Of a stretch of DNA of 50,780 nt, positions 1 through 48,900 are shown piece after piece. Source of the stretch: a virus (lineage: Duplodnaviria > Caudoviricetes); IMG/VR virus record IMGVR_UViG_3300027763_000081, positions 1 through 50,780 of that record; one strand, given 5' to 3'. The stretch's first letter is position 1; every line of letters starts with the position of its first letter. The position numbers and the translations under genes are program-made. The notes beneath the pieces were generated by a model that saw nothing but the letters and a program-made list of their open reading frames with translations, made no database searches and was not told the origin of the DNA.

Positions 1-136
1 TAGTACTTGTGGCACGCTCGGCAAAGTCAAGTGCCTTCTTGGCAGTGTCATTCATAGCAAACCTTTCTGCCCTGCGGTCAGCAGGAGCTGGTGGGGAGAG
101 ACGATGCGTGGCTCCGACGAGGAGGGCATGTCTCCC
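1..136 (+). repeat. Terminal direct repeat, left copy (circular assembly overlap)
   Basis: 1-136 matches 50644-50780 except for one missing C (TGTGGCACG versus TGTCGGCACG). Confidence 0.95.
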
Positions 137-747
137 TTGAGATGAGATCGGAGGATGGCCATGTGGTCTGAGACTGCATGGATCTTGTCTGGGTCGCGGA
201 GAACTGCGGATGGATGGAAGGTGGAGAACAGATTGAATTGGATTCCTTCGACGGTGAGCGAGAGGCCTTGAGTCTTGAAAGCATCTGATTGCTTGACTGC
301 CTTGCCTGTCACCCAGCGGGTCAGGTGAGCGAGCGGATCTGCGCCGGCGCAAAGCGCGGCGCGGAACCGCGCAGCCCCGTACTTCTTCATGATCGTGATG
401 AAGTCCTTGGTCCCGTGCTCCATCCAGCAGGCGCGGTACTGCCTGCCAGTGGGGGCTTTGCCGGTGGGGGTGTAGCAGCGAGCGATGTTGCCGAGCCAGA
501 TGTCAGCGTGCTCGTTGATGCGGGAGCCGTTGATGTATGACTCGGTCAGCACCTTGCCGGACTTGCCCTGCCAGCATGCGTTGGCAATGTCCTCTTGGAA
601 TCCGGGGTTCATGCCGAGGACAAGGAGCAATGAATCGTGCTGTCCGGCATGGAGGATTCGCCAAGGTACGCCTGGGTTCTTGATCCCACCTGCGTGGAGG
701 TCACAGCGTGTGCATGTGGGCTGGGGTCCGAGGACTGAGAGTTGCAT
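52..747 (-). CDS. Uracil-DNA glycosylase superfamily protein, family 4-like (Fe-S type)
   Basis: CTRC, GMNPG (cf. GEAPG), GKSG, GNIARC, YRAC and TFHPSAVLR motifs. Confidence 0.85.
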   Translation of the reverse strand: MQLSVLGPQPTCTRCDLHAGGIKNPGVPWRILHAGQHDSLLLVLGMNPGFQEDIANACWQGKSGKVLTESYINGSRINEHADIWLGNIARCYTPTGKAPTGRQYRACWMEHGTKDFITIMKKYGAARFRAALCAGADPLAHLTRWVTGKAVKQSDAFKTQGLSLTVEGIQFNLFSTFHPSAVLRDPDKIHAVSDHMAILRSHLKGDMPSSSEPRIVSPHQLLLTAGQKGLL

Positions 748-905: not shown

Positions 906-1209
906 CGTGGTTGCCTTCGTAGTGTGGGTCGTTGACGATCTCGCGCATCTTGTCCTCGATCATCTCGTTGATCTCGGCGTCGTGATCCTTGAGTGCGATC
1001 TTCATCTGGCGTGGCATGTCCTCGCCCGATCCGAACTCCCAGTCCATCTCCGAGTTGTCATCGTGGATGGAGACGGAGAGGAGTCCGGCTGTGAAGCGCG
1101 GGACGTAGCGGTCGACGGTCTTGGTCCGCCAGATCTGGAACTCGTACTTGAGAGTGATGGTTCCGAACTCGTCGGACTCAATCTCGAACTCGATGTCCTT
1201 GGTCTTCAT
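880..1209 (-). CDS. Hypothetical acidic protein
   Basis: 109-aa ORF with ATGA overlap to the upstream gene. Confidence 0.75.
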   Translation of the reverse strand: MKTKDIEFEIESDEFGTITLKYEFQIWRTKTVDRYVPRFTAGLLSVSIHDDNSEMDWEFGSGEDMPRQMKIALKDHDAEINEMIEDKMREIVNDPHYEGNHDADPRDKH

Positions 1210-2012
1210 GCGATCTCCGCAGTGGTGTAATCGATCATGTCCATGAGCACACGGTGTGCAGTCGACATGCGGGTGGGGGTGGAAAGCGGGTTGAGCGAGA
1301 GCTTCTCAACTTCGGTGATGCCCTGCATCACGTCGCCGAAGGTAATGCCTCGTCCGTTGCGGGGGAACAGACCGCCCGGTCCGTCGATGCGGAGCACTTC
1401 GTTGCGTACCTTGCGGACATTCGACCAGGTGATTGCTTCTTCTTGGGCGAGTTGGCAGCACACGTGGTCGAGGATGATGCCTTCGTCGTTGCCGTACTGC
1501 TGGTCGAGGTAGTGCCGGTCGAGTGCGGCGGATTCCCTGAGGTACGAGTCGGCGGTACGGAGGAAGTTCATCATTGCCGAGGCGGTGATGGACGGGAGTT
1601 CACGGGCCAGGCCCGGTGTGTTCTTGCGCTTGAACTGGAAGGCATCGGTGCCAGCGAAGGCCTGGTTGTCACAGACCAGAGTCTTCTTGGACAGGATGCC
1701 ACCTGCGGGGAAGCGCTTGGTCCACGAGTTGCGGAAGCCGAGGCCGAGCGATGTGCCATCGGGGATGTCGAGCTTCTCGTGCTCGAACTCGATGAGCCCG
1801 AAGAACTCGTCGGCTCCGGTGTCTCCCTCCTTGATGCCGTAGTTCTCGGAGGTGATGGTTGCACCCATGAAGTGGAGCGTGTCGATGATGGAGGTGGCGA
1901 AGTCGTAGTGTGAGAGCGGGTGCCACGTGTCCGTGGGTGCAGGCGGTTCGATGACGGACAGGTCGGTGCGGGTTGCGGGGATTGCGCCAGCGTGGAGGTA
2001 GAGAGTTGACAT
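1206..2012 (-). CDS. DUF932-like phage/plasmid protein
   Basis: TDTWHPLSH, FFGLIEF, LGFRNSW and LVCDN motifs typical of DUF932; GAGGA RBS. Confidence 0.8.
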   Translation of the reverse strand: MSTLYLHAGAIPATRTDLSVIEPPAPTDTWHPLSHYDFATSIIDTLHFMGATITSENYGIKEGDTGADEFFGLIEFEHEKLDIPDGTSLGLGFRNSWTKRFPAGGILSKKTLVCDNQAFAGTDAFQFKRKNTPGLARELPSITASAMMNFLRTADSYLRESAALDRHYLDQQYGNDEGIILDHVCCQLAQEEAITWSNVRKVRNEVLRIDGPGGLFPRNGRGITFGDVMQGITEVEKLSLNPLSTPTRMSTAHRVLMDMIDYTTAEIA

Positions 2013-3089: not shown

Positions 3090-3692
3090 TTAGCGCTTGA
3101 CTGCGGTCAGGTTGCGCTTGGGCTGGCGCTCCTGTTCCGCGGACTCAGTGACGGGCTCGCGCACGTTGTCCAGGCTGATCGCCTGAGCAGCGTTGCCCTT
3201 CTCGTTGCGCAGGTTGAAGTACTGCTTGCCGTCCTTCTTCGAGGTGTTCCACTCGAAGTAGCCAGTGAAGTTGAGGCCAGCCAGCCCATCGGTCAGGTTG
3301 ACCAGGCTCGTGATGGCAGCGACGAACGCGTCGTCCTGAGCCGTGGTGAACGCAACCTTGGCTGCAGCCACCGTGCTCAGGAACTGCTTGCCCGAGTCAG
3401 GCTTCGCCGCGTTCAGCAGGCTGGCGATGGTCGCCACCGATGCGTAGTTGCGAGCGAAGTTGACGTTGTCGTCAGACATCTGGGGCTCACAGCGCACGGA
3501 CATCTGCTTGCTGATGCCGTTGTTGCCGTGCACGGTGTAGTTCACGTAGAGAGCCATGTCGTTCTCCTTGTCGGAGAAGACGACCTTGGTCACGGTGAAC
3601 CCGTACCGGCCGGTCGGCATGCGGTCCGAGTTGATGACGTTCTCGGCGTTGCGGAGGCGAGCGGCGGCGAGGTTGTTGAGAGCGATCTTCAT
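3090..3692 (-). CDS. Putative OB-fold / DUF669-like ssDNA-binding protein
   Basis: MPTGRYGFTVTKV N-terminal strand and KDGKQYFNL C-terminal strand, a DUF669-like pattern. Confidence 0.45.
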   Translation of the reverse strand: MKIALNNLAAARLRNAENVINSDRMPTGRYGFTVTKVVFSDKENDMALYVNYTVHGNNGISKQMSVRCEPQMSDDNVNFARNYASVATIASLLNAAKPDSGKQFLSTVAAAKVAFTTAQDDAFVAAITSLVNLTDGLAGLNFTGYFEWNTSKKDGKQYFNLRNEKGNAAQAISLDNVREPVTESAEQERQPKRNLTAVKR

Positions 3693-4259: not shown

Positions 4260-4508
4260 TCAGTCAGGGGTGCGGTCGGGTGCGTTCTCGTGGGCGAGTT
4301 CGTCGAGTGCGTCGAACGCGCTGTAGAGTTCATCGGCTGCCTCGAAGATGCCAGAGATGGCATTGGCGAGGTCATCCTGTTGGTCTTCGGGTGCTATCCT
4401 CTGGATGTCGGTTGCCAGGGTTCGCACGGCGTTAACCGTATTCATTGCTTTCTTGACTTCTTGAAGCAGTCCGATCAGTCCTTGGTAGTTTGCGTATGGC
4501 TTGGCCAT
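4260..4508 (-). CDS. Hypothetical helical-hairpin protein, 82 aa
   Basis: MAKPYANYQG start after AAAGGA; the 271-aa upstream extension overlaps another gene. Confidence 0.7.
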   Translation of the reverse strand: MAKPYANYQGLIGLLQEVKKAMNTVNAVRTLATDIQRIAPEDQQDDLANAISGIFEAADELYSAFDALDELAHENAPDRTPD

Positions 4509-4600
4509 TTCGTTCCTTTGTGCCAGCGTCCGGCTGGTTCGGTTGTCCTGAGTGGACGAGAGCGCCCACCAGGTCGCATCTGGTGGGGTGACTCGACGAC

Positions 4601-4975
4601 TCAGTCCTGCATGGCGTTGTAGTCCTCGTCGGGCATGGAGTCTTCCTCCTTCTGCCTGAGGCGCTCGAGTTCCTGTTCCTGCGTCACCGGACCCTTGGGC
4701 TTGGGGACGAAGGTGTCGCGGGAGCCGTGCGGCTCGTCGTCGACGGGGTTGCCCGCCTTGTCGAAGTCGGCCATCCTGCGTGCGATGGCCTTGAGTTCGG
4801 TCAGGGCGAGTGACGCCTTGCTGTAGTAGCTCTGTAATTCCAGGAGTTCCTTGGCGTTGATGTGTCCACCGATTGCCATTGATGCAATCTGATCTTCGAC
4901 TGTGCAGTCGGAGACGACCTTGGTGGCCTCGATGTGCAGGTACAAGCAGCGGAATTCCTTTGTTCTCTTGGTCAT
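4601..4975 (-). CDS. Hypothetical protein
   Basis: 124 aa, GAAGGA RBS. Confidence 0.75.
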   Translation of the reverse strand: MTKRTKEFRCLYLHIEATKVVSDCTVEDQIASMAIGGHINAKELLELQSYYSKASLALTELKAIARRMADFDKAGNPVDDEPHGSRDTFVPKPKGPVTQEQELERLRQKEEDSMPDEDYNAMQD

Positions 4976-5071
4976 GTAGTGTCCTTCTGCCCTGGTGGGC
5001 GTGGTGTGTCGTTCTCACGACGAGTGGGAACGGAATCCCCCTCCCCGGTGAAGGGGAGGAGTGATCCGCGC

Positions 5072-5425
5072 TCACGCGCAGTCGTAGCCCCAGTCGCGGC
5101 GGCCGTAGCGCTCGATCTCGATGAACTTCATGGTGCAGGTGACCGACTTGCCGGCCTCGAGGGCCTTGGTCACCGCGTTGCGGACTGCAACCGTGAAGTA
5201 CAGACGCTTGAACGAGCAGTCGTACGACTTGTCCTCAACCTTGAAGTGGACGCGCAGGTACTCGTGCTTCACGCCATTGGCGAGGTACACGTCCTGCGTC
5301 AGTCCCGTGAGCGTGGCCTCGAACGTCCCAGTGGGCATGTCGAACCCAGCGGTGTTCGTCTTCACGCCACCCTTCTTGGAGGAGAGGAGCGAGTTGAGGC
5401 TGACGGAATTGTTGCTGTTGGCCAT
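5072..5425 (-). CDS. Putative small OB-fold/SSB-like protein
   Basis: MANSNN start after GAAAGG; MPTGTFEATLTGL resembles the 3090-3692 motif; beta-rich. Confidence 0.5.
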   Translation of the reverse strand: MANSNNSVSLNSLLSSKKGGVKTNTAGFDMPTGTFEATLTGLTQDVYLANGVKHEYLRVHFKVEDKSYDCSFKRLYFTVAVRNAVTKALEAGKSVTCTMKFIEIERYGRRDWGYDCA

Positions 5426-5897: not shown

Positions 5898-7298
5898 TCA
5901 GTGTTCGTCGTTCTGCGTCCTGCTCAGACTCAGCCCGACGATTCCCCGTTCGTGGCCTTGACTTTCAGGAAGCCGGGTCTGCCTCAGTCCCCAACTGGAC
6001 TCCTGACAGATCCTCACAAACAGCATGTTAGCCGGGACGTGCAGCCGGATTCTATTGGATTCCAGCCAGTCTTCCCACTGCTCCCTCAGGACTTCATTGG
6101 CCACGAACCCATCCTTCCTCTGCACAAACCGCGCATGGAGGAACGAGTCGAACGGGTTGTTCTGCAGGTGGTACAGCCGGACCGCATCTTGAGCTGCAGC
6201 CGGGATGGGCCACCGCTCGTTGATCTCCGACCCAAGCAGCCGCTGCGCACCACGTGCGGCCCACATGGCAATCCCCTGCATCTCGGCCTCCAACTTGTCC
6301 TCGAGGTACAGATCCTCCTTGCCCTCAAAGCTGACCTCAAAGGGCAGTACCAGCATCTTGCCGCTCAGGCCCCTACCCTTATTGGGCAGCACGGGGATCT
6401 CGTTGCTCTGCAACATGGGGGCCGCATTCACAATGACGTTCCGCTGCTGCCGCTGGTGCTTCACATTCACCGTCAGCGGATCCTGGCCTACGATGTTCTT
6501 GAGCACTCGGCAGACCCGTTCACCCGCTTTGGAGTCCACCTCATTAACCTCGTTGATGGCCAGCACCTTGCTGCGCTCCAGGCCATCCATTCCGAACTCA
6601 CCGCTCAGGTCCTCGAGGCTGCTGCTCATAAACGCCGCCCGCCCGATCAGCTTCCGCATAATCGTGGTGATCGTGCCCTTGCCGCCACGGATCTTGCCGT
6701 ACATCAACATCCACCGGGCGTACCGGCGGGTCCCCAGCAGGCAGTACCCCATCCACCTGGACAGCAACTCTGCCCACACCGGATCCCCGTCACCCCACTC
6801 CTTGACGGCCTGCTCCCAACGGGGGCACGCAAACTCCTCCGAGAAGTTGACCGGCAGCACCGCCGGATCGAACCAGTTCTTTGGGCGCTGCATGGTCTTC
6901 CCGGTCTCCGCGTTGAACAGCATGTCCGCAAACGCAATCGTGGTGTGCGGCGAGAAGTCACCCAGCGGCTTGCCAATCCAGCACGGCACGACCTCCGCGT
7001 CAATGCGGACCAGCGCCTCAAGCGCACGGGCAACTCCGTCAATCTTCTGCTTGTCCGGGCTATAACGCTCCAGGGCCACACCATTTCTGGTGGGCTTCTC
7101 CCAGACGGCATCCTCTAGGCAGACCCAGATCAGGTCCTTCAGGCGCTCATCGTCAAGCACGGCCCAGCGCTGTTCGCGCCAGACCCACCAGTCGTTCCGC
7201 CAACGGTACACCCCAGAATCCCGGAACTTCTCTTGCATCACGCGACGTGCAACCTTCGTCGGCTCAACCGAGTTGAGCGGGTCTTGTCTCCAATCCAT
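5898..7298 (-). CDS. D5/P4-type superfamily 3 helicase without a primase domain
   Basis: CPRWEQ, WMGYCL, Walker A GKIRGGKG, Walker B-like AINEV, motif C MLQSNEIP, VLPF. Confidence 0.9.
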   Translation of the reverse strand: MDWRQDPLNSVEPTKVARRVMQEKFRDSGVYRWRNDWWVWREQRWAVLDDERLKDLIWVCLEDAVWEKPTRNGVALERYSPDKQKIDGVARALEALVRIDAEVVPCWIGKPLGDFSPHTTIAFADMLFNAETGKTMQRPKNWFDPAVLPVNFSEEFACPRWEQAVKEWGDGDPVWAELLSRWMGYCLLGTRRYARWMLMYGKIRGGKGTITTIMRKLIGRAAFMSSSLEDLSGEFGMDGLERSKVLAINEVNEVDSKAGERVCRVLKNIVGQDPLTVNVKHQRQQRNVIVNAAPMLQSNEIPVLPNKGRGLSGKMLVLPFEVSFEGKEDLYLEDKLEAEMQGIAMWAARGAQRLLGSEINERWPIPAAAQDAVRLYHLQNNPFDSFLHARFVQRKDGFVANEVLREQWEDWLESNRIRLHVPANMLFVRICQESSWGLRQTRLPESQGHERGIVGLSLSRTQNDEH

Positions 7299-38162: not shown

Positions 38163-38855
38163 ATGGACACACCTTCAAAAAAGTTTGCGCAATCAAGGCT
38201 GTCAACTACTACGACTCCATCTGAAATCTATGACTTGGCATATGGTGATCTTGCGCCTGAAATCTTGAAGAAAGCACGCAAGTATCAATCAGAAAATCCA
38301 TTGCACGATTACATGCGTACTCCGGATTACTCTGATAAATCCATGGAATCACCTATTGAGGTGAAGCCAATGGAACACAACTTTGCTCGCGCTATGGTCA
38401 ATCGCAATGACCTTCCGACAATTCATCTTCGGAACGATCTATATGGATCTGGCAATGATCCCATAAAGAAAAACTTGTCGTTGATCATGCACGAAGTCCA
38501 GCACTCTATTGGAAGTGGAGACACTCCTGGAACTAAAAAGATTGAGAGACAGCCAGTAGATACTCTTGGCAACAAAGAGTTTCTTGGTGATGATTCTCAT
38601 GCGATTTCTTCAGCTGAACTTCCTGCATACATTGCTCAATTGAAACTGCAAAGATTTCAGGACAGCAAGAAGTATCCATCAGCAGAAAATCCACAAGAGT
38701 TGATTGAACATCTGAAGCAACTTGAGAACAAATACCCACAGGGCGATTACTTGAATGACGTAATACGGTTCCTTCAAGAATCACCTGAAACGGGAATCAT
38801 GTTTTGGAATTCGGTTGCACGCCGAAACAATCAACTCAGCGGGTTACTGGCTTAG
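38163..38855 (+). CDS. Zincin-like metallopeptidase (MPTase-like) accessory protein
   Basis: LIMHEVQH (HExxH) with downstream ELPAY; AT-richer than the operon. Confidence 0.7.
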   Translation: MDTPSKKFAQSRLSTTTTPSEIYDLAYGDLAPEILKKARKYQSENPLHDYMRTPDYSDKSMESPIEVKPMEHNFARAMVNRNDLPTIHLRNDLYGSGNDPIKKNLSLIMHEVQHSIGSGDTPGTKKIERQPVDTLGNKEFLGDDSHAISSAELPAYIAQLKLQRFQDSKKYPSAENPQELIEHLKQLENKYPQGDYLNDVIRFLQESPETGIMFWNSVARRNNQLSGLLA

Positions 38856-39341
38856 TGGCATCCAGAACTCCACGATCCCCGGGACATTATGCCAACGCAC
38901 CGCACCCAGGATTGCCCGGTCCACGAACCTCGATCCGACCCAGAGGGGGTTCAGGCCGGGGCACGCCTCGGCGACCTGGGAGACGGTCCGGCGGTTGAGG
39001 GTGGTGGACATGTGTATGTCTTCCCCGGTAGCCCAAGTGCGGGTATAGGTGTTAGCTGCGTGGCGAACGACGAAGGGATCTGTCTCGTGTGGCCCCACCA
39101 GCTCCTCGGGTGGGGGTCGATCCGATGCAAGTGTGTACCGGCAAAGGACCCACCAACGGCGGGGGTGGGTGGGGAACTCGCAGGTCAGGAGGTAGGAGGT
39201 TCCCCGTTTGCGGTGGCGGGATGGCATCCAGAGGCGGGGGATCGTGGTGTTGAGGTAGAGACGGGGTGTCTCCATCCGGCCGCCCCTGGAGGCAGCCCAG
39301 CCCGTTTCAAGGGTAAGCCTCTGTGTTCTTTCCTGGTTCAT
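38844..39341 (-). CDS. Hypothetical protein
   Basis: 165 aa; converges on and overlaps the 3' end of 38163-38855 by 12 nt. Confidence 0.6.
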   Translation of the reverse strand: MNQERTQRLTLETGWAASRGGRMETPRLYLNTTIPRLWMPSRHRKRGTSYLLTCEFPTHPRRWWVLCRYTLASDRPPPEELVGPHETDPFVVRHAANTYTRTWATGEDIHMSTTLNRRTVSQVAEACPGLNPLWVGSRFVDRAILGAVRWHNVPGIVEFWMPLSQ

Positions 39342-39789
39342 AGGGCGCCTCCCGCACCTTCTGAAGGGTACCGAGGATCATCAGGCTATCCTTGCGGACG
39401 TCGTTCATCCAGTCGATCATGCCGGTGGTGGTGACGCCCTTGCTGCTCAGGTCGATCAGGTGCTGGACCATGCCAATACCGATCATGCCGGACTGGGTCT
39501 TGTTGACCATGTCCTCGAAGAACTTGGGCTGTGTGATCCGGTGGACCCGCTCGATGGCACACTCTGGGAACCGCTGATTCCAGCTGAAATTCATGCGGTC
39601 AAGGATGGCAGGTGAGGGGTGCGTGTAGTAAATGAAGCCCCACGAGGAGTTGGTTTCGCTCGTGACGCAGATGGACCAGCGGTCTGGCTCGAGGCCATGC
39701 AGGCTGGTGGTGGCTGAGATGTGTTCCTTGATGTCCTGATACGAACCTTGGTCAGGAATCGAGACGACAATCGTGGATTCGTAAGGCAT
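39307..39789 (-). CDS. Hypothetical protein
   Basis: 160 aa, GAGG RBS. Confidence 0.75.
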   Translation of the reverse strand: MPYESTIVVSIPDQGSYQDIKEHISATTSLHGLEPDRWSICVTSETNSSWGFIYYTHPSPAILDRMNFSWNQRFPECAIERVHRITQPKFFEDMVNKTQSGMIGIGMVQHLIDLSSKGVTTTGMIDWMNDVRKDSLMILGTLQKVREAPYEPGKNTEAYP

Positions 39790-39932
39790 ACCCTCATCCT
39801 AAAGGTAAGTAGTGAAAGGGCCCCGTGGATTTTCATCAACACGGGGCCCCTATCCGGGGGTTCGTACCCACCAATGAGGGGAGGGGGCTCCTTGTGGGAA
39901 CTCCCCCTCCCCGGCTGGTGGGGCTTGTTGGG

Positions 39933-40460
39933 TCAGGCGGACAGCGTCTTCTGCAGGAACTCCTTGCGGTACTGCCGTCCGTCCTTGGCCGTATCGTACT
40001 GGCACTTGACGACAACCGCAATCACGGCGTCGGTAGTTTCCAGACGGTGCGACAGGTCGGCAAGGGCGGTTCCGATATCCTGCGGTTCACGGCGCAGGCA
40101 GGTGGTGAGGTGGCCCTTGAGGCGGCGCAGCTCGATCTCGGCCCGGGTCTTGGCACCCTGGTCGGTCAGGGCGTTCATGTCGGCCGGCAGGCGGATGGGG
40201 GCACCCACCCAGCGGCGCGGCTCGTCCTGACCCGGATCATTGATGAGCTGGTAGGAGAACTGGATCTCGTAACCGGGGAACGACTGGCCATCCTTCTGCT
40301 TGAAGGTGCTGTCCTGCATGTTCACGTCGGTGACGAGGCAATCGTGGTTGCCCTCTTCCGGCCACCAGCCGAGCGAGCCGAGGCCCGAGTCAGCCTGAAC
40401 GGCCTGGAAGTTGTTGTTGAGGGCGGCGAAAACGGTCTTGACCTTGTTGTCAATAGGCAT
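39933..40460 (-). CDS. DUF669-like ssDNA-binding protein
   Basis: WPEEGNHDCLVTDV...VVVKCQYDTAKDGRQY; directly downstream of the Sak4-like ATPase. Confidence 0.65.
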   Translation of the reverse strand: MPIDNKVKTVFAALNNNFQAVQADSGLGSLGWWPEEGNHDCLVTDVNMQDSTFKQKDGQSFPGYEIQFSYQLINDPGQDEPRRWVGAPIRLPADMNALTDQGAKTRAEIELRRLKGHLTTCLRREPQDIGTALADLSHRLETTDAVIAVVVKCQYDTAKDGRQYRKEFLQKTLSA

Positions 40461-40531
40461 AACAGACTCCGATAAGAGTGGTGAGAAGAGAAACAGAAAC
40501 AGTAGGAGAGAGGCGACACGCGCCCCCCGCG

Positions 40532-41431
40532 TCAGCGGGGCGCGTTCGCCGCGTCATACGCAGACTGAAGTGCAGCCCATGCTGCTTCCGGCGGAAGCTT
40601 CAGGGTTTCCATGGGTTGCATGGTGCGCACCTTGGCAATGCCCTCGAGCTTGGGGTTCGAGAACGTGGCAAAGTGCTGGCGCACCTTCTTGCTGCTGACG
40701 TTGGTCTTCTTGATGATGCGGTCGCCGACCTTCACCTCGACCTCGCGGGATTCCTCGATGACATCCCAGGTGGTGGTAATGGGGACAACCAGATCGAACA
40801 TTGGGAACATGCGTGCGTACAGGCCGTCCGAGATGAGGATCTTGTACTCCTCGACGTGCTGGTTCTCGGAGAGCGGGATGTGCTTGCGGGACAGGTGCGC
40901 GATGTAGAAGACACCGTAACCGTGGCGGCGCAGCGATGCACCAAACTCGATCAGGGTATCGAACAGGCGCTCCCAGCCCAGTCGGCCATCGACGTCGGTG
41001 AACTTCTCGCGACCGTACAGGCTGGCGATGTGCGGACGCAGCAGTCGGATGGCAGCACCGAGCGTGTCAATGACCACGGTCTCGGGGCGCGGCTGATTGC
41101 GGACGGCAAGGTCAATCAGCTGCTTGTGCTTCTCCTCAACCAACTTCCACGACAGGACCATGGGGTTGCCCCGCTCGTCCTGCGCCCGGCCATCGGCACC
41201 GGGTGTGGGCCACATCACTGCCTCGCTCGTCGAGCAAACAGCAGGCGTCTCGTCGAGGTTGATGATGAAGGCATTGGGATTGGACTGAAGGAGGAACGAT
41301 TTGCCAGAGCCTGCTTCGCCAACAACCAAGCCGAGCATGCGCCCAAGAGGGACGCGGCCAGTGACCACCGAAGCGCCGAGGGAAGGGTATTTGGAAGCAA
41401 GGGTCTTACCAGTAGCAAGGGCGTGAGTCAT
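40532..41431 (-). CDS. Sak4-like AAA_24 ATPase (single-strand annealing)
   Basis: GEAGSGKS, VVIDTL, FYIAH; nuclease-ATPase-SSB context. Confidence 0.85.
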   Translation of the reverse strand: MTHALATGKTLASKYPSLGASVVTGRVPLGRMLGLVVGEAGSGKSFLLQSNPNAFIINLDETPAVCSTSEAVMWPTPGADGRAQDERGNPMVLSWKLVEEKHKQLIDLAVRNQPRPETVVIDTLGAAIRLLRPHIASLYGREKFTDVDGRLGWERLFDTLIEFGASLRRHGYGVFYIAHLSRKHIPLSENQHVEEYKILISDGLYARMFPMFDLVVPITTTWDVIEESREVEVKVGDRIIKKTNVSSKKVRQHFATFSNPKLEGIAKVRTMQPMETLKLPPEAAWAALQSAYDAANAPR

Positions 41432-41440
41432 GATGTCGCC

Positions 41441-41845
41441 TTAATCGAGGAAGGAGGGGGCTTTCATTCCACCGGGGAGGACCATCCTCTCGCCTCCCAT
41501 GTAGACCGCCGGTGCTTCCGGCATTTGATTTGGTTCATCGAACTGCGAGAATACCGCCTCGTCCGCAGACTCCTGGCTGACCGGCTGCACCTCACGGGCT
41601 GCAGGTCGGTAGCCAGGGATGTTGACGACCATCTTCTTCTCGAACGTGATCCCGATATCTTCGCACCACTCGGCAAACACGCACATGGAGATGTTGCACT
41701 TGTGCTCGTTGTTGAAGATGTTGAGGAGACTAGAGCGGGACGCAATGTCGTCATGCTCCGCAACGATCTTTGCGATCTTCGGCTGGATCACCTGCTCGAG
41801 GATCTCCTGCTGGAAGTAGGTGAACGGGTTAACTCTGCTGCTCAT
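41441..41845 (-). CDS. Hypothetical protein, possible HTH
   Basis: 134 aa, ATGA coupling. Confidence 0.7.
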   Translation of the reverse strand: MSSRVNPFTYFQQEILEQVIQPKIAKIVAEHDDIASRSSLLNIFNNEHKCNISMCVFAEWCEDIGITFEKKMVVNIPGYRPAAREVQPVSQESADEAVFSQFDEPNQMPEAPAVYMGGERMVLPGGMKAPSFLD

Positions 41846-43065
41846 GCCATGTCTCCTTCGGGGACTGCGTCGTCTCGGTCACGCTGCACAAAGTTCTCCT
41901 GACGCACGATGTCCGGCCACACAACAGGGTCGGTCATCATGAACGGCAGGTACACGCTCGGCATGCCAGTGCCTTGGATCGGGTCGCCCATTTCGAAGTT
42001 GTCCGGATAGGGTTCGCGGTTCGCATATGAACGGCAAAACTTGAGTCGCTCATGGTACTGCGTGATCAGCTTCTCATCAAGCAAATGTGTCGCGGAAGTG
42101 TAAGAAATGTTGATGCACGGATTGGTGAGTCGCTCGGGCTCCATATGTAGATACTCACCCGTGCCCGTATACCACTCGTAGCATCGCTGCTCGTAGATGG
42201 CGGGATCCGGTTCACCAACAAACACCTTCTCATTGCGCGGTTCACCCTTGCGCGGACCAGACTTGAGCGGACTGGTGTCAAGCGTGAACGGGCGGTCCTT
42301 CATGCCGAACTCGATGGTCGGCTTCTGTACCGCAATGTGGATCACGCCACCCAGGCGCTCTGCGTTGTACTCTGCAAGATCCAGCTTGTTCATCACGTGG
42401 AAGTAGTGCTGGGTCTGGAACTCGATGGGGCACGCCTGCAGTCGCTCGGTTGCGCTGCTGCTTGTGGTCTTGAAGTCAACGATCCACAAGTCCTTGGGCT
42501 TGTTCGGGAACTTGATGAGCGCATCGGGCTGGATGACGCAGTCTTGGAAGCGGAGCATCGGCTCCTGCGCCACGATGTCCACGAAGTCAACCCAACCACC
42601 CAGCCTGCCGGTGGGGCCTTCGCCGTCGAGCTTGAACTGGACGGTCATAGAGGCAGAGAACCAGGCCCACGCAGTGCGGGCGTCCTTCTCCTCGCGCTCC
42701 TGGATCTCGCGGATGAGTTCGGCGGACTGGCCGGCAGTGCGACCGTAGGCACGGAGTTCCTGCAGGCGCAGGTCCATGACGCTCTCGTACATCTCGAGGG
42801 CGGCTTCCTTGTTCTTGCGCAGCGAGTAGGCGGCGAAGGCAAGGTGGGCCCACGATCCACGGGACAGGGCCGCGCTGTAGCGGGAGGCCTTGACCAGCCC
42901 GAGGCGGCGGCTCAGGTACCACGAGAACGGGCACGAGCGGAGCGAGCGGTAGTCGGACGAGCGGATGCCCACGTTGCGGGGTGCAATGCCGTGGTAGGAA
43001 AGCCATTCACGGGCATCCTGTCCACCGCTGGTGGGGACCTTGGGGGTTTCGGTTTCTGGTGGCAT
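41842..43065 (-). CDS. PD-(D/E)XK exonuclease (Cas4/RecB-like)
   Basis: SCPFSWYL, RGSWAH, QPDALI, IVDFKT, QTQHY. Confidence 0.88.
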   Translation of the reverse strand: MPPETETPKVPTSGGQDAREWLSYHGIAPRNVGIRSSDYRSLRSCPFSWYLSRRLGLVKASRYSAALSRGSWAHLAFAAYSLRKNKEAALEMYESVMDLRLQELRAYGRTAGQSAELIREIQEREEKDARTAWAWFSASMTVQFKLDGEGPTGRLGGWVDFVDIVAQEPMLRFQDCVIQPDALIKFPNKPKDLWIVDFKTTSSSATERLQACPIEFQTQHYFHVMNKLDLAEYNAERLGGVIHIAVQKPTIEFGMKDRPFTLDTSPLKSGPRKGEPRNEKVFVGEPDPAIYEQRCYEWYTGTGEYLHMEPERLTNPCINISYTSATHLLDEKLITQYHERLKFCRSYANREPYPDNFEMGDPIQGTGMPSVYLPFMMTDPVVWPDIVRQENFVQRDRDDAVPEGDMA

Positions 43066-43641: not shown

Positions 43642-44556
43642 CTAGTGGGCGAGGTGGAATTCGGGCGTCAATTGGTAGTACGTGTTGACCTTGTTGCCGG
43701 TCGAACGGCCAGCCTTCTTGGCAAGGTAAAGACGCATCCAGACTGCACCCTGCACTTCGGGACCACGGCCCTGCTCGATGTGCCAGCCGCTGTGGCCGTC
43801 ACCGAATTCGTCCTTGTAAGTGCCGGTACGGACGTGGTACTGGATGTCGCTGACGATGCGAGAACCGTGTTTGTCGCAGACCAGGCGCTCGCGGGACAGC
43901 GGCATGAACCACTGCTTGTGCACGTGTCCCTGCACGATGACGTCTGCGTCCGGCATGATGGCTGCGTTGCGCCGAACCTTCAGGGTGTCGAAGGACATGA
44001 GTGCTGCACCGCCAGAGCCGTGGAAGTACTTGAGGCTTAGCGAGTACCGCTCGTTGTTGATCTCAACGTTGAACTTAATCCAGCCACCGTATCCACCGGC
44101 GTGCACCTTGTGGCCAGACTGCTGGCTCATGCGCTCGCAGGTGCGCTCGGTGATGTCTGTCTCGCAGTTCTTCAGGATCGCGGACTCATGGTTGCCACGA
44201 CCGATCACTACGAAGTTCTCGGAGTACGGAGCGTAGAAGTCGGAAGCATGCCGGACTAGGGAATCGAGGTAGTCCGCAGCCAATGCATGCTCTTCTCGAA
44301 TGCCCGCCTTGTTGCGGCGAGGATCAAACTTGCCTTCCATGGCGCAGTGCAGATCGCCGACATCAATGATGCCAGCCTTCCTTTCACGCGCTTCATTGAG
44401 GTGCTTGAGTTCGAGGTCATGGTCGGCGTGGGGGTTGTCGTGGTGACGGTCCCCGGACAGCAGGAACCACCACTCATTCGTTCGCGAGGTGCAATCAAGA
44501 TCAACAAGGTGGATGTTCCTTGTTGCTGCCCTCACCTGGAACGGGACGTTTGCCAT
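43642..44556 (-). CDS. Calcineurin-like metallophosphoesterase
   Basis: GDRH, VGDL, GNHE, FHG, GHVH; start MANVPFQV at a TGATG overlap. Confidence 0.88.
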   Translation of the reverse strand: MANVPFQVRAATRNIHLVDLDCTSRTNEWWFLLSGDRHHDNPHADHDLELKHLNEARERKAGIIDVGDLHCAMEGKFDPRRNKAGIREEHALAADYLDSLVRHASDFYAPYSENFVVIGRGNHESAILKNCETDITERTCERMSQQSGHKVHAGGYGGWIKFNVEINNERYSLSLKYFHGSGGAALMSFDTLKVRRNAAIMPDADVIVQGHVHKQWFMPLSRERLVCDKHGSRIVSDIQYHVRTGTYKDEFGDGHSGWHIEQGRGPEVQGAVWMRLYLAKKAGRSTGNKVNTYYQLTPEFHLAH

Positions 44557-44672
44557 CAGATCTTGGAGCCATGCTTCTTGCAGAGGTACCAGCCGGCAAC
44601 GAAGCCGATGACACCGAGCAGGCCCGCGAACCAAAGGTTACCGAGGAAATCAGAGAAGTCAGCAAGGATCAT
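44556..44672 (-). CDS. Small single-TM membrane protein, 38 aa (missing from the ORF track)
   Basis: MILADFSDFLGNLWFAGLLGVIGFVAGWYLCKKHGSKI; coupled on both sides; GAAAGG RBS. Confidence 0.75.
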   Translation of the reverse strand: MILADFSDFLGNLWFAGLLGVIGFVAGWYLCKKHGSKI

Positions 44673-45821: not shown

Positions 45822-46318
45822 CAGACCCCCGCGTAGAGGACGGTGATGGTGGGCTGACCGCTGCTGGCATACGAGAACACCTCGATATACTCGCAGCCCA
45901 GCGTGTCAACAAGGATGAAGCCGCCCGGAGTCGTAACGCTTGCGCCGTTGTAAAGCTTGGCATCACCCTGCGAAAGCGTCCACGAGGTCATCTCGTACGC
46001 GCTTCCAATTCCGGGGAGGCTGGTCTGCTGCGTGGTTGAGACGGTTCCAACAACGTAGGCAAGAAGCTGCGGAACATACGAGTTGCTTTCCAGCACGTAG
46101 TTCCAACCGTAGACGTAGAAGTTCTGGCTAGCCGTGTTCGCGCTGCTGTAGATCTTCAGCTTCAGGTAGTTCAGGCTTGCGCCGAACACCGTGCTGCCCG
46201 TTGCCGAGACCGGCTTGGTTGCAGTCAGCTTCTTGTCGGGAGCCGTTCCTGCCGTGCCCGCCGTGAAGGATGCCAGGTGGAAGTTCTTCGCGTCGGTCGT
46301 GAGTGTGACGTATGACAT
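45821..46318 (-). CDS. Hypothetical T/S/G-rich, virion-like protein
   Basis: MSYVTLTTDAK start after an AGGA RBS. Confidence 0.75.
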   Translation of the reverse strand: MSYVTLTTDAKNFHLASFTAGTAGTAPDKKLTATKPVSATGSTVFGASLNYLKLKIYSSANTASQNFYVYGWNYVLESNSYVPQLLAYVVGTVSTTQQTSLPGIGSAYEMTSWTLSQGDAKLYNGASVTTPGGFILVDTLGCEYIEVFSYASSGQPTITVLYAGV

Positions 46319-46811
46319 GGTGTTCCTGAGTGATGAGCCACCTGGCTGCCCACTCACCCGCTGCCCTGCGCTGGCCTGCTGTGCTGGTGGGGAGGACGAT
46401 CAGACCGATGGCGAACTCCTGCAGGATACGCATAAGGGAGTCAATCGCAAGACCCGGGTGCGGCTTTCCCGGCTTGATTATGGGTGTCCCCACCAGCCCT
46501 TCAAGGAGGAGCAGCGGGCGAGCGGTCTCGTCCCGGAGGCGGCGGCAGCACTCGGCGAACCGGCGTCGGCCGTCAGGGGTGAGGAGATTCTGGGTGATCT
46601 CGTCAAGAGAACCCTTGCGCTCGACAACCGCTGCTCCCCCATCAAGGGCGTAGTCGCCCGTCTTCATCGTACGCTTCTGGGTACGAAGGCGTACCGTAAT
46701 ACCCGACTGATGGCACGGATCCTTGTTGGGGTCAAGGCAGACGATGTACTCGGGGAATGTGAACGGCTTCTTCTCCCGCTCGTCAACAAGGATGGTGTAC
46801 TCCCGCTTCAC
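46128..46811 (-). CDS. ERCC4/XPF-domain nuclease (probable resolvase)
   Basis: ILVDEREK, KTGDYAL, VVERKGSLDE, LLLEG. Confidence 0.88.
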   Translation of the reverse strand: MKREYTILVDEREKKPFTFPEYIVCLDPNKDPCHQSGITVRLRTQKRTMKTGDYALDGGAAVVERKGSLDEITQNLLTPDGRRRFAECCRRLRDETARPLLLLEGLVGTPIIKPGKPHPGLAIDSLMRILQEFAIGLIVLPTSTAGQRRAAGEWAARWLITQEHHVIRHTHDRREELPPGILHGGHGRNGSRQEADCNQAGLGNGQHGVRRKPELPEAEDLQQREHG

Positions 46812-48691
46812 TAGCCAGGAGTATATGGGTCAACCGGATCCGACAACTTGAAGGTGAACGGAATGTCCCGACCGAACATCTCTTGGCAGGTGTCGAAGAT
46901 GCACCGCTGGATGGTGTGGTGCGTATCGTCGTAGGTATTGGACGTCTGGAATACCAGCTCGTCGTGCAGCTGCAGGGACATCTGGCAACTGTCCAGAAGC
47001 AGGGACATGTTGGTCTGGAGCATGGACATGAACACGGCGGCGTGACCCTGGACCATGAACGACGTGGTGTCGTGCATAGTTTTGGCGGCGCTGTGCATAT
47101 ATGCAATGCCGGCATGGTCCAGATACAGATTGCCGTTCGTACCTGCCTGGTGCCACATGGTCCTCGTGTTCCTGTAGTCAGTCCACTGAGTGAAGACCGG
47201 GAGTTCCGCGATCTCGTCCTTCGTGATGAGGTTGGCGGACGTGGCGATGGCTGTGCGCCATGCCTTGTCGACACCGCCGCCGTTGACCCCCACCAGCAGG
47301 GCGATCTTGGAGATGCTGCGGTTGCTGCCGAGGCTGGAGTACGGGTCGGGCGAGAAGGCGAAGTCGTACATCCGGCGGTCACGGGACAGGGCTGCTGCGA
47401 TGCGGAGCTCGAAGGCAGTCATGTCCATGTGGTACAGGCTGTCGCTGGTGGGGACCATGAGACTGCGCAGTTCCTTGGTCCAAGTCTGTGCGGCTGGTCG
47501 GCGGGCGGACAGGCGGGCGGACTGGGTGCCGCCGTCGTCCGTGGGTGCGCCGTACCACGAGGGGTAGCAGATCCGCTTGTTGCCCACGGTGACACAGCCG
47601 GAGTTGACGGTGATGCCTTGGCCGCGGCTGATCTTGTCGGCCAGGATCTTGCGGCACTCCTGCTCCATGGATTCGTACTTCGAGCAAGCATTCAACTTTA
47701 TCATCAGGTGTACGTTCATGTCGTACTCGAAGTCGTACTTGATGATTGCCGACAGGACGTTCCGATTCTCCCGGTTGTTGCGCACGCTGCGCTTCTTGTC
47801 GGAGTACTCAAGTAGTCCAGCATCATGCAGGTTGTACATGATGCGGTCGGCTTGGGTCACCGCGTCGTCGATGAGCTTGCCCTGCGTAGTGCCGCTGCCC
47901 TCGCCGGACAGGATGACGCCCATGGTAAGGAGGTCTGCCTCGTGCTTCTCGTAAGCGAGACGGCAGTCGTCCGCGTAGTCGAGTAGCTTGTCCTTCTGGA
48001 ATGCCTGGCCGGTGAGCGACAGGTTCTCGATGTTCCAGAGGCGGTCGGAGTGGAACATGATGGAGGATGGCGTGAGCTTCTGGCCACGCTCGTCGGCAAT
48101 GCGCTGGCACAGGGCGCGTGCTGCGAGCACGGCGTTGTGTGTGTCCTCCGCGTTGTACTTGATGGCGTCGGCGCACATCGGGAACTTGAACTTCCCGTCC
48201 TTGAGTGTGCGCTCGTAGGCGAACGCGCCAAGGGCTGGGCCAAGCGCTTTGAGCGAGCGCTCCTTGCGTGCACCGGAGTGGATCCACGAGAGGATCACGG
48301 TGTCCACAAGGGTGGGCTTTGGGTTACTGCTGAGGATGTAGTCCAGCGACTTGAACTGCCGCAGGTACATGAGGTCGTACACGATGTTCGAGCCGACGAT
48401 GGTGTCGGCCTTGCGCAGCATGTCCTCGACGACCATGATGTCGTTGCTGCACATGTCGATGACCGCTGATTCCCCAGGCTCCCAGCTGGTGGGGTCCGAC
48501 GGTTCGCCTTCGACGATGGTGATTGCGCATTGGGGAACCATGCGGCAGGGCAGGATGGTGCCGAGGTCAACCTTCGTGGAGAGTCCGGGATGGAAGACAG
48601 TCTGGTCGGGGCATGGTGCGCCCTTGTTCTCGAAGAACTCGAACGCGCCGTAGGTTTCGATGTCGAGCGAGATGATGAGTGGCTTGCTCAT
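46811..48691 (-). CDS. polA: DNA polymerase family A with 3'-5' exonuclease, divergent
   Basis: ExoI DIET, ExoII NIVYD, ExoIII YNAED; ARLS, motif A DMTAFELR, motif B RSISK, VQG, motif C HDE. Confidence 0.9.
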   Translation of the reverse strand: MSKPLIISLDIETYGAFEFFENKGAPCPDQTVFHPGLSTKVDLGTILPCRMVPQCAITIVEGEPSDPTSWEPGESAVIDMCSNDIMVVEDMLRKADTIVGSNIVYDLMYLRQFKSLDYILSSNPKPTLVDTVILSWIHSGARKERSLKALGPALGAFAYERTLKDGKFKFPMCADAIKYNAEDTHNAVLAARALCQRIADERGQKLTPSSIMFHSDRLWNIENLSLTGQAFQKDKLLDYADDCRLAYEKHEADLLTMGVILSGEGSGTTQGKLIDDAVTQADRIMYNLHDAGLLEYSDKKRSVRNNRENRNVLSAIIKYDFEYDMNVHLMIKLNACSKYESMEQECRKILADKISRGQGITVNSGCVTVGNKRICYPSWYGAPTDDGGTQSARLSARRPAAQTWTKELRSLMVPTSDSLYHMDMTAFELRIAAALSRDRRMYDFAFSPDPYSSLGSNRSISKIALLVGVNGGGVDKAWRTAIATSANLITKDEIAELPVFTQWTDYRNTRTMWHQAGTNGNLYLDHAGIAYMHSAAKTMHDTTSFMVQGHAAVFMSMLQTNMSLLLDSCQMSLQLHDELVFQTSNTYDDTHHTIQRCIFDTCQEMFGRDIPFTFKLSDPVDPYTPG

Positions 48692-48900
48692 TGGTTCTTC
48701 CTGATGTCGAAGGTCATGTTCTGGTGGATGCGCAACTGGGCTGTGGTGTAGTGACGGAGATGTCCGCCGTTGCAGAGAGCGATGCACCACACGTCGTTCT
48801 CGAACGTGCCGCCGTCACGGACGTATATGGCGTAGCCATCCTGTCCATCGCACGTGATGACAGGAATGGGCGTGTCGAATTGGTGGACGCTATTGCTCAC
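48688..48900 (-). CDS. Hypothetical small beta protein
   Basis: 70 aa, coupled to polA. Confidence 0.75.
   Translation of the reverse strand: MSNSVHQFDTPIPVITCDGQDGYAIYVRDGGTFENDVWCIALCNGGHLRHYTTAQLRIHQNMTFDIRKNQ

What the first reader, a model, noticed from the sequence alone, without database searches (positions are those of the whole stretch)
46811..48691. Compact PolA with a rebuilt nucleotide-selection site (motif B Tyr to Asn and several other changes)
Seen: the catalytic core appears retained (R of ARLS, motif A D and E in DMTAFELR, motif B R and K, Q of VQG, HDE). Surrounding conserved residues differ. Motif B reads RSISKIALLVGVNG versus RxxAKxxNFGxxYG, putting Leu at the E. coli F762 position and Asn at Y766. 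DPY replaces DxH, SARLS replaces TGRLS, PAAQTW replaces PNLQNI, and SFMVQGHAAV replaces NxxxQGxAAD. The motif A Asp to motif C Asp spacing is 154 aa by my count, versus 177 in Pol I. Established: F762 and Y766 govern sugar discrimination and fidelity. Inference: altered substrate use (modified bases, NTPs, primer-independent or low-fidelity synthesis), notable because no primase gene is visible.
Basis: partly seen in the sequence, partly recalled or inferred. Interest (0 to 1): 0.72.

Follow-up and report, generated by a model that had tools for sequence, protein, structure and literature searches.

The report
Phage DNA polymerase lacking gate tyrosine
An uncultured phage encodes an intact, proofreading family A DNA polymerase whose nucleotide pocket has been rebuilt, with asparagine replacing a tyrosine long described as universal in this enzyme family, which makes it a natural test case for how these polymerases select nucleotides.

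Summary
Aligned to real E. coli PolA, the catalytic residues are kept (R668, D705, E710, R754, K758, Q849, H881, D882, E883). Six pocket residues differ: Q708A, I709F, H734Y, F762L, Y766N, N845S. The motif A to motif C spacing is 154 aa against 177.

These states are fixed in a small monophyletic clade of 16 full-length sequences at 33-92% identity. Its fingers are the shortest in the superfamily (spacing 150-158 aa, at least 167 elsewhere).

The clade sits in a large uncultured PolA superfamily tied to a family-4 UDG-like partner, fused or encoded just upstream. In that superfamily the Y766 position is Phe (127 of 250 rows), Tyr (78, two of them reference sequences) or Asn (45). Leu762 is a known common natural variant. 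Asn766 was not found in the papers searched, which call Y766 universally conserved.

The functional reading is unsupported. No PurZ, ThyA-like or TGT gene was found, and no primase catalytic domain, although a P4-type primase C-terminal helicase gene is present.

Best reading: a working replicative polymerase with a remodelled nucleotide gate, probably acting with a separately encoded UDG-like subunit. It is a new variant of a known kind, of moderate interest.

The parts
46811..48691 (-). PolA gene, 626 aa (P0001), with stop codon at 46811-46813
   Evidence: Pfam DNA_pol_A 34.2 bits against a cut-off of 34.3. phrog_17 DNA polymerase, E 1.1e-17. AF2 model pLDDT 84.7, pTM 0.86. Foldseek places it among PolA structures.
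48092..48691 (-). 3'-5' exonuclease domain, about residues 1-200. Motifs: Exo I SLDIETYG (48647-48670), Exo II GSNIVYDLMYL (48362-48394), Exo III YNAEDTH (48137-48157).
   Evidence: Local alignment to E. coli maps D424>D106, Y497>Y179, D501>D183. Exo I is assigned by motif only. All are invariant in the clade. Coordinates.
47480..47530 (-). TGR-motif region GTQSARLSARRPAAQTW; R393 corresponds to E. coli R668
   Evidence: This region has low model confidence (residues 379-402 below pLDDT 50).
47402..47425 (-). Motif A, DMTAFELR. D423 is the catalytic Asp and E428 the steric-gate Glu. A426 and F427 replace Q708 and I709.
47339..47347 (-). DPY (Y451 at the H734 position), followed by a 13-aa deletion relative to E. 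coli before the O-helix
47276..47320 (-). Motif B / O-helix, RSISKIALLVGVNGG. R458 and K462 are kept. L466 (codon 47294-47296) sits at F762 and N470 (codon AAC, 47282-47284) at Y766.
   Evidence: The model has a helix at 450-469.
47033..47062 (-). Motif 6, SFMVQGHAAV. S544 sits at N845; Q548 corresponds to Q849.
46955..46972 (-). Motif C, QLHDEL; H576, D577, E578 correspond to H881, D882, E883
52..747 (-). Separate family-4 UDG-like Fe-S protein (P0122, 231 aa), the likely partner of PolA. It lies about 2 kb upstream of PolA once the record is read as circularly permuted.
   Evidence: Pfam UDG, E 7e-7. NCBIfam UDG_fam4, E 7.8e-12, below cut-off. 30% identity, E 2e-25, to the N-terminal domain of the fused relative P0079. 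Synteny with L004. Complex model.
5898..7298 (-). P4-family primase C-terminal domain / SF3 helicase (P0123, 466 aa), without a recognisable primase catalytic domain
   Evidence: TIGR01613, 127.3 bits against a cut-off of 108.7. The PHROG primase families match only their C-terminal halves. Pfam DUF5906.
3090..3692 (-). SSB-like protein
   Evidence: phrog_378, E 1.1e-4; a weak match
46128..46811 (-). ERCC4-type nuclease immediately downstream of PolA
   Evidence: phrog_3490, E 2.4e-6. Pfam ERCC4 23.7 bits against a cut-off of 24.
41842..43065 (-). PD-(D/E)XK exonuclease
   Evidence: Pfam PDDEXK_1, E 7.9e-14; phrog_1218
40532..41431 (-). AAA_24 (Sak4-like) ATPase; among the translated frames compared with related loci, one of the two best conserved (95% identity to L003 and L004)

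Best explanation
This is the phage's own working replicative DNA polymerase. It is a family A enzyme with an intact DEDDy proofreading exonuclease, an intact two-metal catalytic centre, the motif B Arg and Lys, and the steric-gate Glu, so it most likely copies DNA from ordinary dNTPs.

It belongs to a large PolA superfamily with no close cultured-phage relative that is coupled to a family-4 UDG-like protein, either fused to the N-terminus or encoded just upstream. In that superfamily the 'gate' position at the C-terminal end of the O-helix (E. coli Y766, position B4) is already relaxed to Phe in half of the members.

The window's small sub-clade has gone further:
- the fingers are about 23 aa shorter, 13 aa of that just before the O-helix;
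- Asn replaces the gate Tyr;
- Leu replaces Phe762, paired with Ile709 to Phe on the palm side (inferred to be a volume-conserving repacking of the sugar pocket);
- Tyr replaces the phosphate-side His734;
- Ser replaces the minor-groove Asn845.

Inferred consequence: the stacking gate that blocks the insertion site before dNTP binding is missing or is formed differently. Base selection at the polymerase site would then be looser or kinetically different, with the retained exonuclease supplying accuracy. The enzyme probably works as a two-subunit unit with the separate UDG-like protein docked on its exonuclease domain.

Shown here: sequence states, their conservation, the fold and the gene context. 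Inferred: catalytic activity, the repacking and the fidelity effect.
For: - Catalytic and binding residues are kept when aligned to real E. coli PolA, and the exonuclease motifs are kept.
- All of these are invariant or nearly so in 16 sequences at 33-92% identity.
- The clade is monophyletic: FastTree support 100, SH-aLRT 100.
- The AF2 model is confident (pLDDT 84.7, pTM 0.86) with an O-helix at 450-469 ending next to N470.
- The best solved matches are Aquifex Pol I 8jrb (E 1.5e-15), Pol theta, apicoplast Pol and Klenow (TM up to 0.66).
- It is the only region of the roughly 97%-complete record that matches the PolA family model PF00476; other polymerase families were not searched for.
- It sits in one leftward module with the helicase, SSB-like, UDG-like, nuclease and Sak4-like genes.
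- B4 states among 250 aligned rows: Phe 127, Tyr 78 (two of them the reference sequences E. coli and CRP-3), Asn 45.
- Positions specific to the window's Leu762/Asn766 clade (at least 90% in the clade, under 5% elsewhere) include A426, F427, Y451, L466, N470 and S544.
- Motif A to C spacing is 150-158 aa in the clade, at least 167 in every other group, and 177 in E. coli.
- UDG-like gene arrangement in the window plus 45 loci (46 in all): separate and upstream in 32, fused in 8, not seen within the held stretch in 6.
- Complex model: score 0.70, best of 3 controls 0.00. The mark was reached by 58 of 80 solved complexes and 2 of 110 mismatched pairs, and these counts hold only roughly because my own alignments were used. 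Runs agree in at least 60% of contacts, and the partner's pLDDT is at least 83.
Against: - There are no biochemical data of any kind.
- The Pfam score is just under the gathering cut-off (34.2 against 34.3), and phmmer finds no PDB sequence.
- Residues 379-402, which include R393, are modelled with pLDDT below 50.
- In Klenow, Y766A destabilises the closed ternary complex and Y766S (Bst Y714S) is a mutator (passages in PMC3715850), so a fully normal enzyme is not guaranteed.
- The nearest sister sequence P0063 has lost E710, R712 and Q849, which suggests relaxed constraint on this branch.
- The complex pass may reflect likeness to fused UDG-PolA structures (cryo-EM reported in preprint 10.1101/2025.03.26.645540). 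In addition, the last 22 residues of the UDG chain were badly placed in my alignment A2.
Confidence: 0.6

Rival explanations
1. The rebuilt pocket is an adaptation to a special substrate or template. Candidates are a modified or non-canonical dNTP, tolerance of rNTPs, or special handling of dU or abasic sites produced in the template by the UDG-like partner.
For: - Three of the four residues that line the sugar pocket in Klenow-type enzymes (I709, F762, Y766, all but E710) are changed together and then fixed.
- Phe at B4 is described as a substitution unique to the two DpoZ clusters, which replicate Z-DNA (passage in PMC10201439).
- In KlenTaq the equivalent Tyr671 fills in for the missing base at an abasic site, and SP15-like UDG-PolAs excise dU ahead of the fork and bypass the abasic site (passages in preprint 10.1101/2025.03.26.645540).
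- The polymerase is coupled to a UDG-like protein.
Against: - No PurZ, ThyA-like or TGT gene was found in six frames.
- No nucleotide-metabolism family was found among the 48 ORFs scanned against PHROGs, Pfam or NCBIfam.
- The steric-gate Glu is kept.
- 28 Asn-B4 relatives keep an otherwise canonical pocket.
- The UDG-like partner has GMNPG instead of GEAPG in motif A, so its activity is uncertain.
- Most genes are unannotatable, so absence of a pathway is weak evidence either way.
Confidence: 0.2
2. The polymerase site is degenerate. The protein would survive as an exonuclease or a scaffold, and the host replicates the phage.
For: - A residue described as universally conserved is lost (PMC3715850).
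- The Pfam score is below the cut-off.
- The sister sequence P0063 has lost further active-site residues.
Against: - D423, D577, E578, R458, K462, R393, Q548, H576 and E428 are all kept, and they are invariant or nearly so across 33-92% identity. A dead site would drift.
- The new residues themselves are invariant.
- The phage carries its own helicase and SSB-like genes.
Confidence: 0.07
3. The enzyme starts chains de novo (primer-independent synthesis) and so replaces the missing primase.
For: No Prim-Pol, Toprim_2 or DnaG zinc-ribbon domain was found in six frames. The P4-type gene carries only the helicase half.
Against: - To my knowledge (recalled, not searched) no family A DNA polymerase primes de novo.
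- Nothing in the changed residues points to binding of an initiating nucleotide.
- Many genes are unannotated, and 1206-2012 looks like DUF932.
- A host primase or recombination-dependent initiation (Sak4-like, PD-(D/E)XK and Mre11-like genes) are simpler routes.
Confidence: 0.03

Closest known systems
Bacterial Pol I: Klenow fragment, and Aquifex pyrophilus Pol I (PDB 8jrb)
   Same: Same two-domain 3'-5' exonuclease plus polymerase fold (Foldseek E 1.5e-15 for 8jrb; Klenow TM 0.66). Same catalytic Asp/Asp/Glu, motif B Arg and Lys, steric-gate Glu, and Q849/H881 equivalents. 8jrb is also the best PDB match by sequence profile (8.8e-16 against 6.7e-7 for Klenow).
   Different: Only 13-15% identity in the structural alignments. 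Q708A, I709F, H734Y, F762L, Y766N and N845S. A 13-aa deletion before the O-helix. Motif A to C spacing of 154 aa against 177. No 5' nuclease domain.
UDG-PolAs: N4-like cluster #17, SPO1-like, SP15-like, and unclassified ones such as Serratia phage Serbin
   Same: Association with a family-4 UDG module. The replication module has a similar gene repertoire to phage N4: polymerase, exonuclease, primase/helicase, Sak4-like and SSB. Serbin PolA is the best-scoring cultured-phage PolA against the superfamily profile (216 bits).
   Different: The UDG is a separate gene here. N4 gp39 scores only 50.8 bits with the superfamily profile and gives no hit at E of 10 or less with the clade profile. BLASTP of 12 window proteins against 11 N4 proteins gave no hit at 1e-2. 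All of these cultured examples have Tyr at B4.
Leu762 phage PolA groups (Schmidt 2014, recalled through citations; Nasko 2018; Keown 2022)
   Same: Leu at the 762 (B3) position, a frequent natural state in viromes (passages read).
   Different: Those papers describe Leu762 groups next to SNF2, UvrD or RecB-type helicases. Here the helicase is a P4-type SF3 enzyme. Neither paper mentions position 766 (0 occurrences of '766' or 'Tyr766').
DpoZ (phiVC8-like and Wayne-like clusters)
   Same: The only clusters in the 19-cluster PolA classification reported with a non-Tyr residue (Phe) at B4 (passage in PMC10201439). Fold match to 7pbk.
   Different: Asn rather than Phe at B4, no PurZ gene, and no close sequence relationship.

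Membership tests
Family A DNA polymerase (Pol I / Klenow type) | Catalytic Asp in motif A and Asp(-Glu) in motif C | tested here: met
   D423, D577 and E578 align to D705, D882 and E883. D423 and D577 are invariant and E578 nearly invariant in the clade.
Family A DNA polymerase (Pol I / Klenow type) | Motif B Arg and Lys on the O-helix, and the TGR-motif Arg | tested here: met
   R458, K462 and R393 align to R754, K758 and R668.
Family A DNA polymerase (Pol I / Klenow type) | Motif B Tyr (E. coli Y766, position B4), described as universally conserved | tested here: not met
   N470 aligns to Y766, and Asn is present in 16 of 16 clade members.
Family A DNA polymerase (Pol I / Klenow type) | Steric-gate Glu (E710) | tested here: met
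   E428.
Family A DNA polymerase (Pol I / Klenow type) | Overall fold | tested here: met
   204 PDB chains at Foldseek E of 0.001 or less; all rows shown are PolA-type polymerases.
Family A DNA polymerase (Pol I / Klenow type) | Pfam PF00476 gathering score | tested here: inconclusive
   34.2 bits against a cut-off of 34.3; relatives carry PF00476 in the precomputed table.
DEDDy 3'-5' proofreading exonuclease domain | Exo I (DxE), Exo II (NxxxD) and Exo III (YxxxD) motifs | tested here: met
   D106, Y179 and D183 align to D424, Y497 and D501. D10 and E12 are assigned by motif only.
N4-like UDG-PolA (cluster #17 of PMC10201439) | N-terminal fused family-4 UDG domain, and Phe at B3 | tested here: not met
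   The UDG is a separate gene, B3 is Leu, and similarity to N4 gp39 is weak.
DpoZ | Phe at B4, and a PurZ pathway in the genome | tested here: not met
   Asn at B4. There was no PF00709 match in six frames, while the control search matched in 14 of 14 genomes.
SP15-like or SPO1-like UDG-PolA | Fused catalytically active UDG; for SP15-like, also a C-terminal domain and two inserts | tested here: not met
   No fused UDG and a 626-aa protein. UDG motif A is GMNPG rather than GEAPG. The inserts and C-terminal domain were not examined.

The most novel reading that the evidence does not exclude
The Asn-B4 polymerases, and most of all this short-fingered Leu762/Asn766 clade, select nucleotides without the stacking Tyr gate. 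This would be tuned to their UDG-like partner: the partner scans the template ahead of the active site, and removing the Tyr that normally stands in for a missing base (the A-rule) changes what the polymerase does at dU or abasic sites, or lets it accept a nucleotide that canonical PolAs reject.
Probability: 0.12. Interest if true: 0.8.

Novelty: new variant of a known kind. Interest (0 to 1): 0.5.

Why it matters
Y766 and its equivalents (Taq Y671, Bst Y714) are central to models of PolA fidelity. The residue blocks the insertion site before dNTP binding, pairs with the steric-gate Glu, and fills in for the missing base at abasic sites. It is described as universally conserved in family A (PMC3715850, passages read).

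A natural, conserved lineage that does without it, in two forms, is a ready-made experiment on what the residue is for. One form has an otherwise canonical pocket. The other has five further pocket changes and shortened fingers.

It is also a possible source of polymerases with unusual substrate tolerance. Finally, the result places a large PolA superfamily that has no close cultured-phage relative, and that is coupled to a UDG-like protein, next to the UDG-PolAs already described.

Tried and rejected
- Alternative register for motif B: rejected. R458, K462 and G471 anchor the alignment in two independent alignments.
- Independent origins of Asn at B4: cannot be claimed.
  - FastTree needed at least 11 Asn/non-Asn changes, and a quick IQ-TREE run on 55 of the 250 rows needed 6.
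  - However, a tree holding all 23 Asn rows together had a log-likelihood 17.75 higher than the free quick tree, with p-AU 0.671.
  - The same test for the Phe762/Asn766 rows alone did not finish.
- One search used a wrong residue-to-column index, so its counts are void; one search replaces it.
- One search used a UDG profile contaminated with PolA columns and is void; replace it.
- Cultured relatives: tblastn of P0001 against 50,697 phage records found nothing at 1e-3. For P0041 and P0148 no place covered 80% of the query (0 of 1045 and 0 of 178 records). P0079 reached 84% coverage at 24.5% identity at best.
- Prophage or host search: 4 distant loci (26-31% identity, plus one 30-residue fragment) in MAG contigs and none from the clade, so the host stays unknown.
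- BFVD fold search: only matches at 10-15% identity.
- Primase hunt among unknown genes: 1206-2012 resembles DUF932 (score 0.98), and 4260-5075 gave no usable hit.
- Literature: a search for Y766N, Y671N, Y714N, Y530N, Y955N and Y2391N found 4 papers. The 3 listed concern other proteins; the fourth was not shown.
- Supplementary files of the papers were not opened. The motif logos in Supplementary Figure S1 of PMC10201439 might show rare B4 variants.
- Three-dimensional check of the F427/L466/N470 packing: not possible, because no coordinates are exposed.
Full report
**What is at the coordinates.** The minus-strand ORF 46811..48790 is read from the ATG at 48691. This start matches the homologues and overlaps the stop of the upstream gene as ATGA. 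The product is P0001, 626 aa. Standard libraries barely recognise it. Pfam DNA_pol_A scores 34.2 bits against a cut-off of 34.3, PHROG phrog_17 'DNA polymerase' gives 1.1e-17, and phmmer finds nothing in the PDB. A profile of 16 relatives (A1) does reach solved PolAs: Aquifex pyrophilus Pol I 8jrb at 8.8e-16 and Klenow at 6.7e-7. An AlphaFold2 model built on A1 is confident (pLDDT 84.7, pTM 0.86), with the weakest long stretch at residues 379-402. Foldseek places it among PolA structures: 8jrb at 1.5e-15, then Pol theta, apicoplast Pol and Klenow with TM up to 0.66.

**Check of the observation.** I took E. coli K-12 polA from NC_000913.3 and aligned it through a superfamily HMM.
- Kept: R668>R393, D705>D423, E710>E428, R754>R458, K758>K462, G767>G471, Q849>Q548, H881>H576, D882>D577, E883>E578.
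- Changed: Q708>A426, I709>F427, H734>Y451, N761>L465, F762>L466, Y766>N470, R841>H540, N845>S544.

The PDB profile alignment gives the same register. The exonuclease motifs are present: D424>D106, Y497>Y179 and D501>D183 by alignment, and DIETYG by motif. The word 'compact' needs a qualifier. The protein is about the size of the Klenow fragment chains in the PDB (605 aa), but its motif A to C spacing of 150-158 aa is the shortest in its superfamily. The next shortest is the single sister sequence P0063 at 167, all larger groups are at least 172, and group medians run from 181 to 195.

**Is it more than chance?** The word-indexed search found 168 relatives at E of 0.001 or less among 8000 scored candidates.
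- Fourteen full-length clusters at 47-92% identity (170 member sequences) and P0017 at 32-33% share the motif B pattern K-x-A-[LMT]-L-V-[GL]-[VIL]-N-G-G.
- K462, A464, L466, V467, N470, G471 and G472 are invariant in 16 of 16.
- Neighbouring codons vary synonymously among the window and four IMG/VR loci, while the Asn codon stays AAC.
- In an exhaustive profile search of 1.84 billion representatives, only five sequences scored above 400 bits (three full length, two fragments). The next scored 288 bits; 253 proteins had E of 1e-30 or less and 2752 had E of 0.001 or less.

So this is a small, sharply separated clade inside a large superfamily. It is monophyletic, with FastTree support 100 and SH-aLRT 100 on a 55-row subsample.

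**The superfamily.** I aligned 250 rows: 248 superfamily proteins of at least 480 matched columns, plus E. coli PolA and Roseobacter phage CRP-3 PolA.
- States at positions 762/766: Phe/Phe 125, Phe/Tyr 75 (including both references), Phe/Asn 28, Leu/Asn 16, Leu/Tyr 3, Leu/Phe 2, Asn/Asn 1.
- Motif C: YDA or YDS in 191 rows, and HDE in only 16 (15 clade members and E. coli).

The gate position is therefore already relaxed in this superfamily, and Asn occurs in 45 of 250 rows. The 28 Phe/Asn proteins keep H734, N845 and F762 in all 28 rows and Q708 in 27 of 28. Their own specific changes are His at 759 and Thr at 763.

Positions that are at least 90% fixed in the window's Leu762/Asn766 clade and under 5% elsewhere include A426, F427, Y451, L466, V467, G468, N470, S544, G549 and E578.

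Whether Asn arose once or several times is open. Free trees scatter the Asn rows, with at least 11 changes and 6 changes. A tree holding all 23 sampled Asn rows together was nevertheless 17.75 log-likelihood units better than the free quick tree, with p-AU 0.671. The motif B columns were left out of all trees.

**Relation to known polymerases.** No cultured phage carries a close relative.
- P0001 gave no tblastn hit in 50,697 phage records.
- Three more typical superfamily members hit cultured phages only at 20-30% identity, mostly over part of their length.
- Scores against the superfamily profile: Serratia phage Serbin UDG-PolA 216 bits, CRP-3 143, E. coli 137, the SPO1-like C-terminal piece 136, N4 gp39 51 and T7 gp5 22.5. 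Only E. coli, Serbin, CRP-3 and the SPO1-like piece reached the clade profile at all.
- All five cultured or model PolAs that aligned over motif B have Tyr at B4; T7 did not align there.

From the literature:
- Hohlbein et al. call E710 and Y766 'universally conserved within A-family polymerases'. They describe Y766 stacking on the terminal template base and blocking the insertion site (PMC3715850, passages).
- Czernecki et al. name the positions B3 and B4. They report Leu at B3 in some clusters and call Phe at B4 a substitution unique to the two DpoZ clusters (PMC10201439, passages).
- Nasko et al. and Keown et al. show that Leu762 is very common in viromes. They do not mention position 766 (passages).
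- A search for Tyr-to-Asn mutant names found nothing relevant among the 3 of 4 papers listed.

**Genome context.** The window is a whole IMG/VR virus record, about 97% complete. Comparison with locus L004 shows the record is circularly permuted. The leftward module runs in this order:
- P4-type helicase (5898-7298);
- SSB-like gene (3090-3692);
- UDG-like gene (52-747);
- two small genes;
- PolA;
- ERCC4-type nuclease;
- Mre11-like nuclease (43642-44634);
- PD-(D/E)XK exonuclease;
- Sak4-like AAA_24 ATPase (40532-41431).

Six-frame searches found no Prim-Pol, Toprim_2 or DnaG zinc ribbon, and no PurZ, ThyA-like or TGT family. The control searches matched in 5 to 14 of the 14 control genomes. 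Most other genes match no family, so absence is weak evidence.

**The UDG partner.** P0122 is 30% identical (E 2e-25) to the N-terminal UDG domain of the fused relative P0079 and 29% identical to that of P0066. In the window plus 45 related loci, a UDG-like gene lies separately upstream of PolA in 32, is fused in 8, and was not seen within the held stretch in 6. The separate forms keep four Cys and the motif B His, but mostly read G[MQ]NPG..ED where three of the fused forms (L036-L038) read GEAPG.

A complex model of PolA with P0122 supports binding without showing it. The score was 0.70 and the best of 3 controls was 0.00. The mark was reached by 58 of 80 solved complexes and 2 of 110 mismatched pairs, and these counts hold only roughly because my own alignments were used. 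The runs agree in at least 60% of contacts, and the partner's pLDDT is at least 83. The contacts place the C-terminal tail of the UDG-like protein (residues 211-228) on the exonuclease domain. Cryo-EM structures of fused UDG-PolAs are reported in a preprint (10.1101/2025.03.26.645540; abstract, section 5 and passages read), so the pass may owe something to likeness.

**Interpretation.** The conserved catalytic set, the invariance of the new residues, the intact exonuclease and the replication-module context point to a working replicative polymerase (confidence 0.6 for the full statement). The paired I709F and F762L changes look like an exchange of aromatic and aliphatic side chains across the sugar pocket. 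That, and any effect of Asn470 on gating and fidelity, are inferences. De novo priming and a dead active site are unlikely.

**Verdict.** This is a new variant of a known kind, with interest 0.5.

Noticed in passing
window 52-747 (-), and loci L003-L047: The family-4 UDG-like Fe-S protein is the split form of the UDG domain that relatives carry fused to PolA. In the window plus 45 loci (46 in all) it is separate and upstream in 32, fused in 8, and not seen within the held stretch in 6. The separate forms mostly read G[MQ]NPG..ED where three of the fused forms (L036-L038) read GEAPG. The complex model with PolA scored 0.70 against 0.00 for the best control.
   Followed up: partly
window 38844-41902: The longest ORFs here are on the plus strand (for example 40478-41902, 474 aa). 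Conservation shows the real genes are on the minus strand: 40532-41431 is 95% identical to L003 and L004, against 66-68% for the plus-strand frame. It is an AAA_24 (Sak4-like) ATPase.
   Followed up: yes
proteins P0018-P0258 (superfamily relatives): Motif C reads YDA or YDS in 191 of 250 aligned rows in place of the HDE of E. coli Pol I, and motif 6 reads Q-T or Q-A instead of Q-G. The window's clade keeps the E. coli-like HDE and QG forms.
   Followed up: partly
protein P0063 (660 aa), sister of the clade: It has Asn at both the 762 and 766 positions. Motif A reads DIFHADWT (no E710, no R712), and motif 6 reads MSS for MQG. It may be an inactive or very different enzyme.
   Followed up: no
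window 5898-7298 (-): P4-family primase C-terminal / SF3 helicase domain without the primase half. No Prim-Pol, Toprim_2 or DnaG zinc ribbon was found anywhere in six frames.
   Followed up: partly
window 1206-2012 (-): A conserved early gene (61-62% identity in L004 and L005) resembles DUF932 proteins of phages in the language-model search (score 0.98). Pfam, PHROGs and NCBIfam gave nothing.
   Followed up: no
window 1-50780, compared with L004: The record is a circular permutation. The leftward replication module runs off coordinate 1 and continues at 50780, as gene order in L004 shows.
   Followed up: yes
loci L054-L056 (MAG contigs): The only genome-collection hits to the superfamily (26-31% identity) lie on contigs binned as Myxococcales, Phycisphaerae and Planctomycetaceae. 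This is a weak hint at hosts of the wider superfamily, and the contigs may be mis-binned phage.
   Followed up: no
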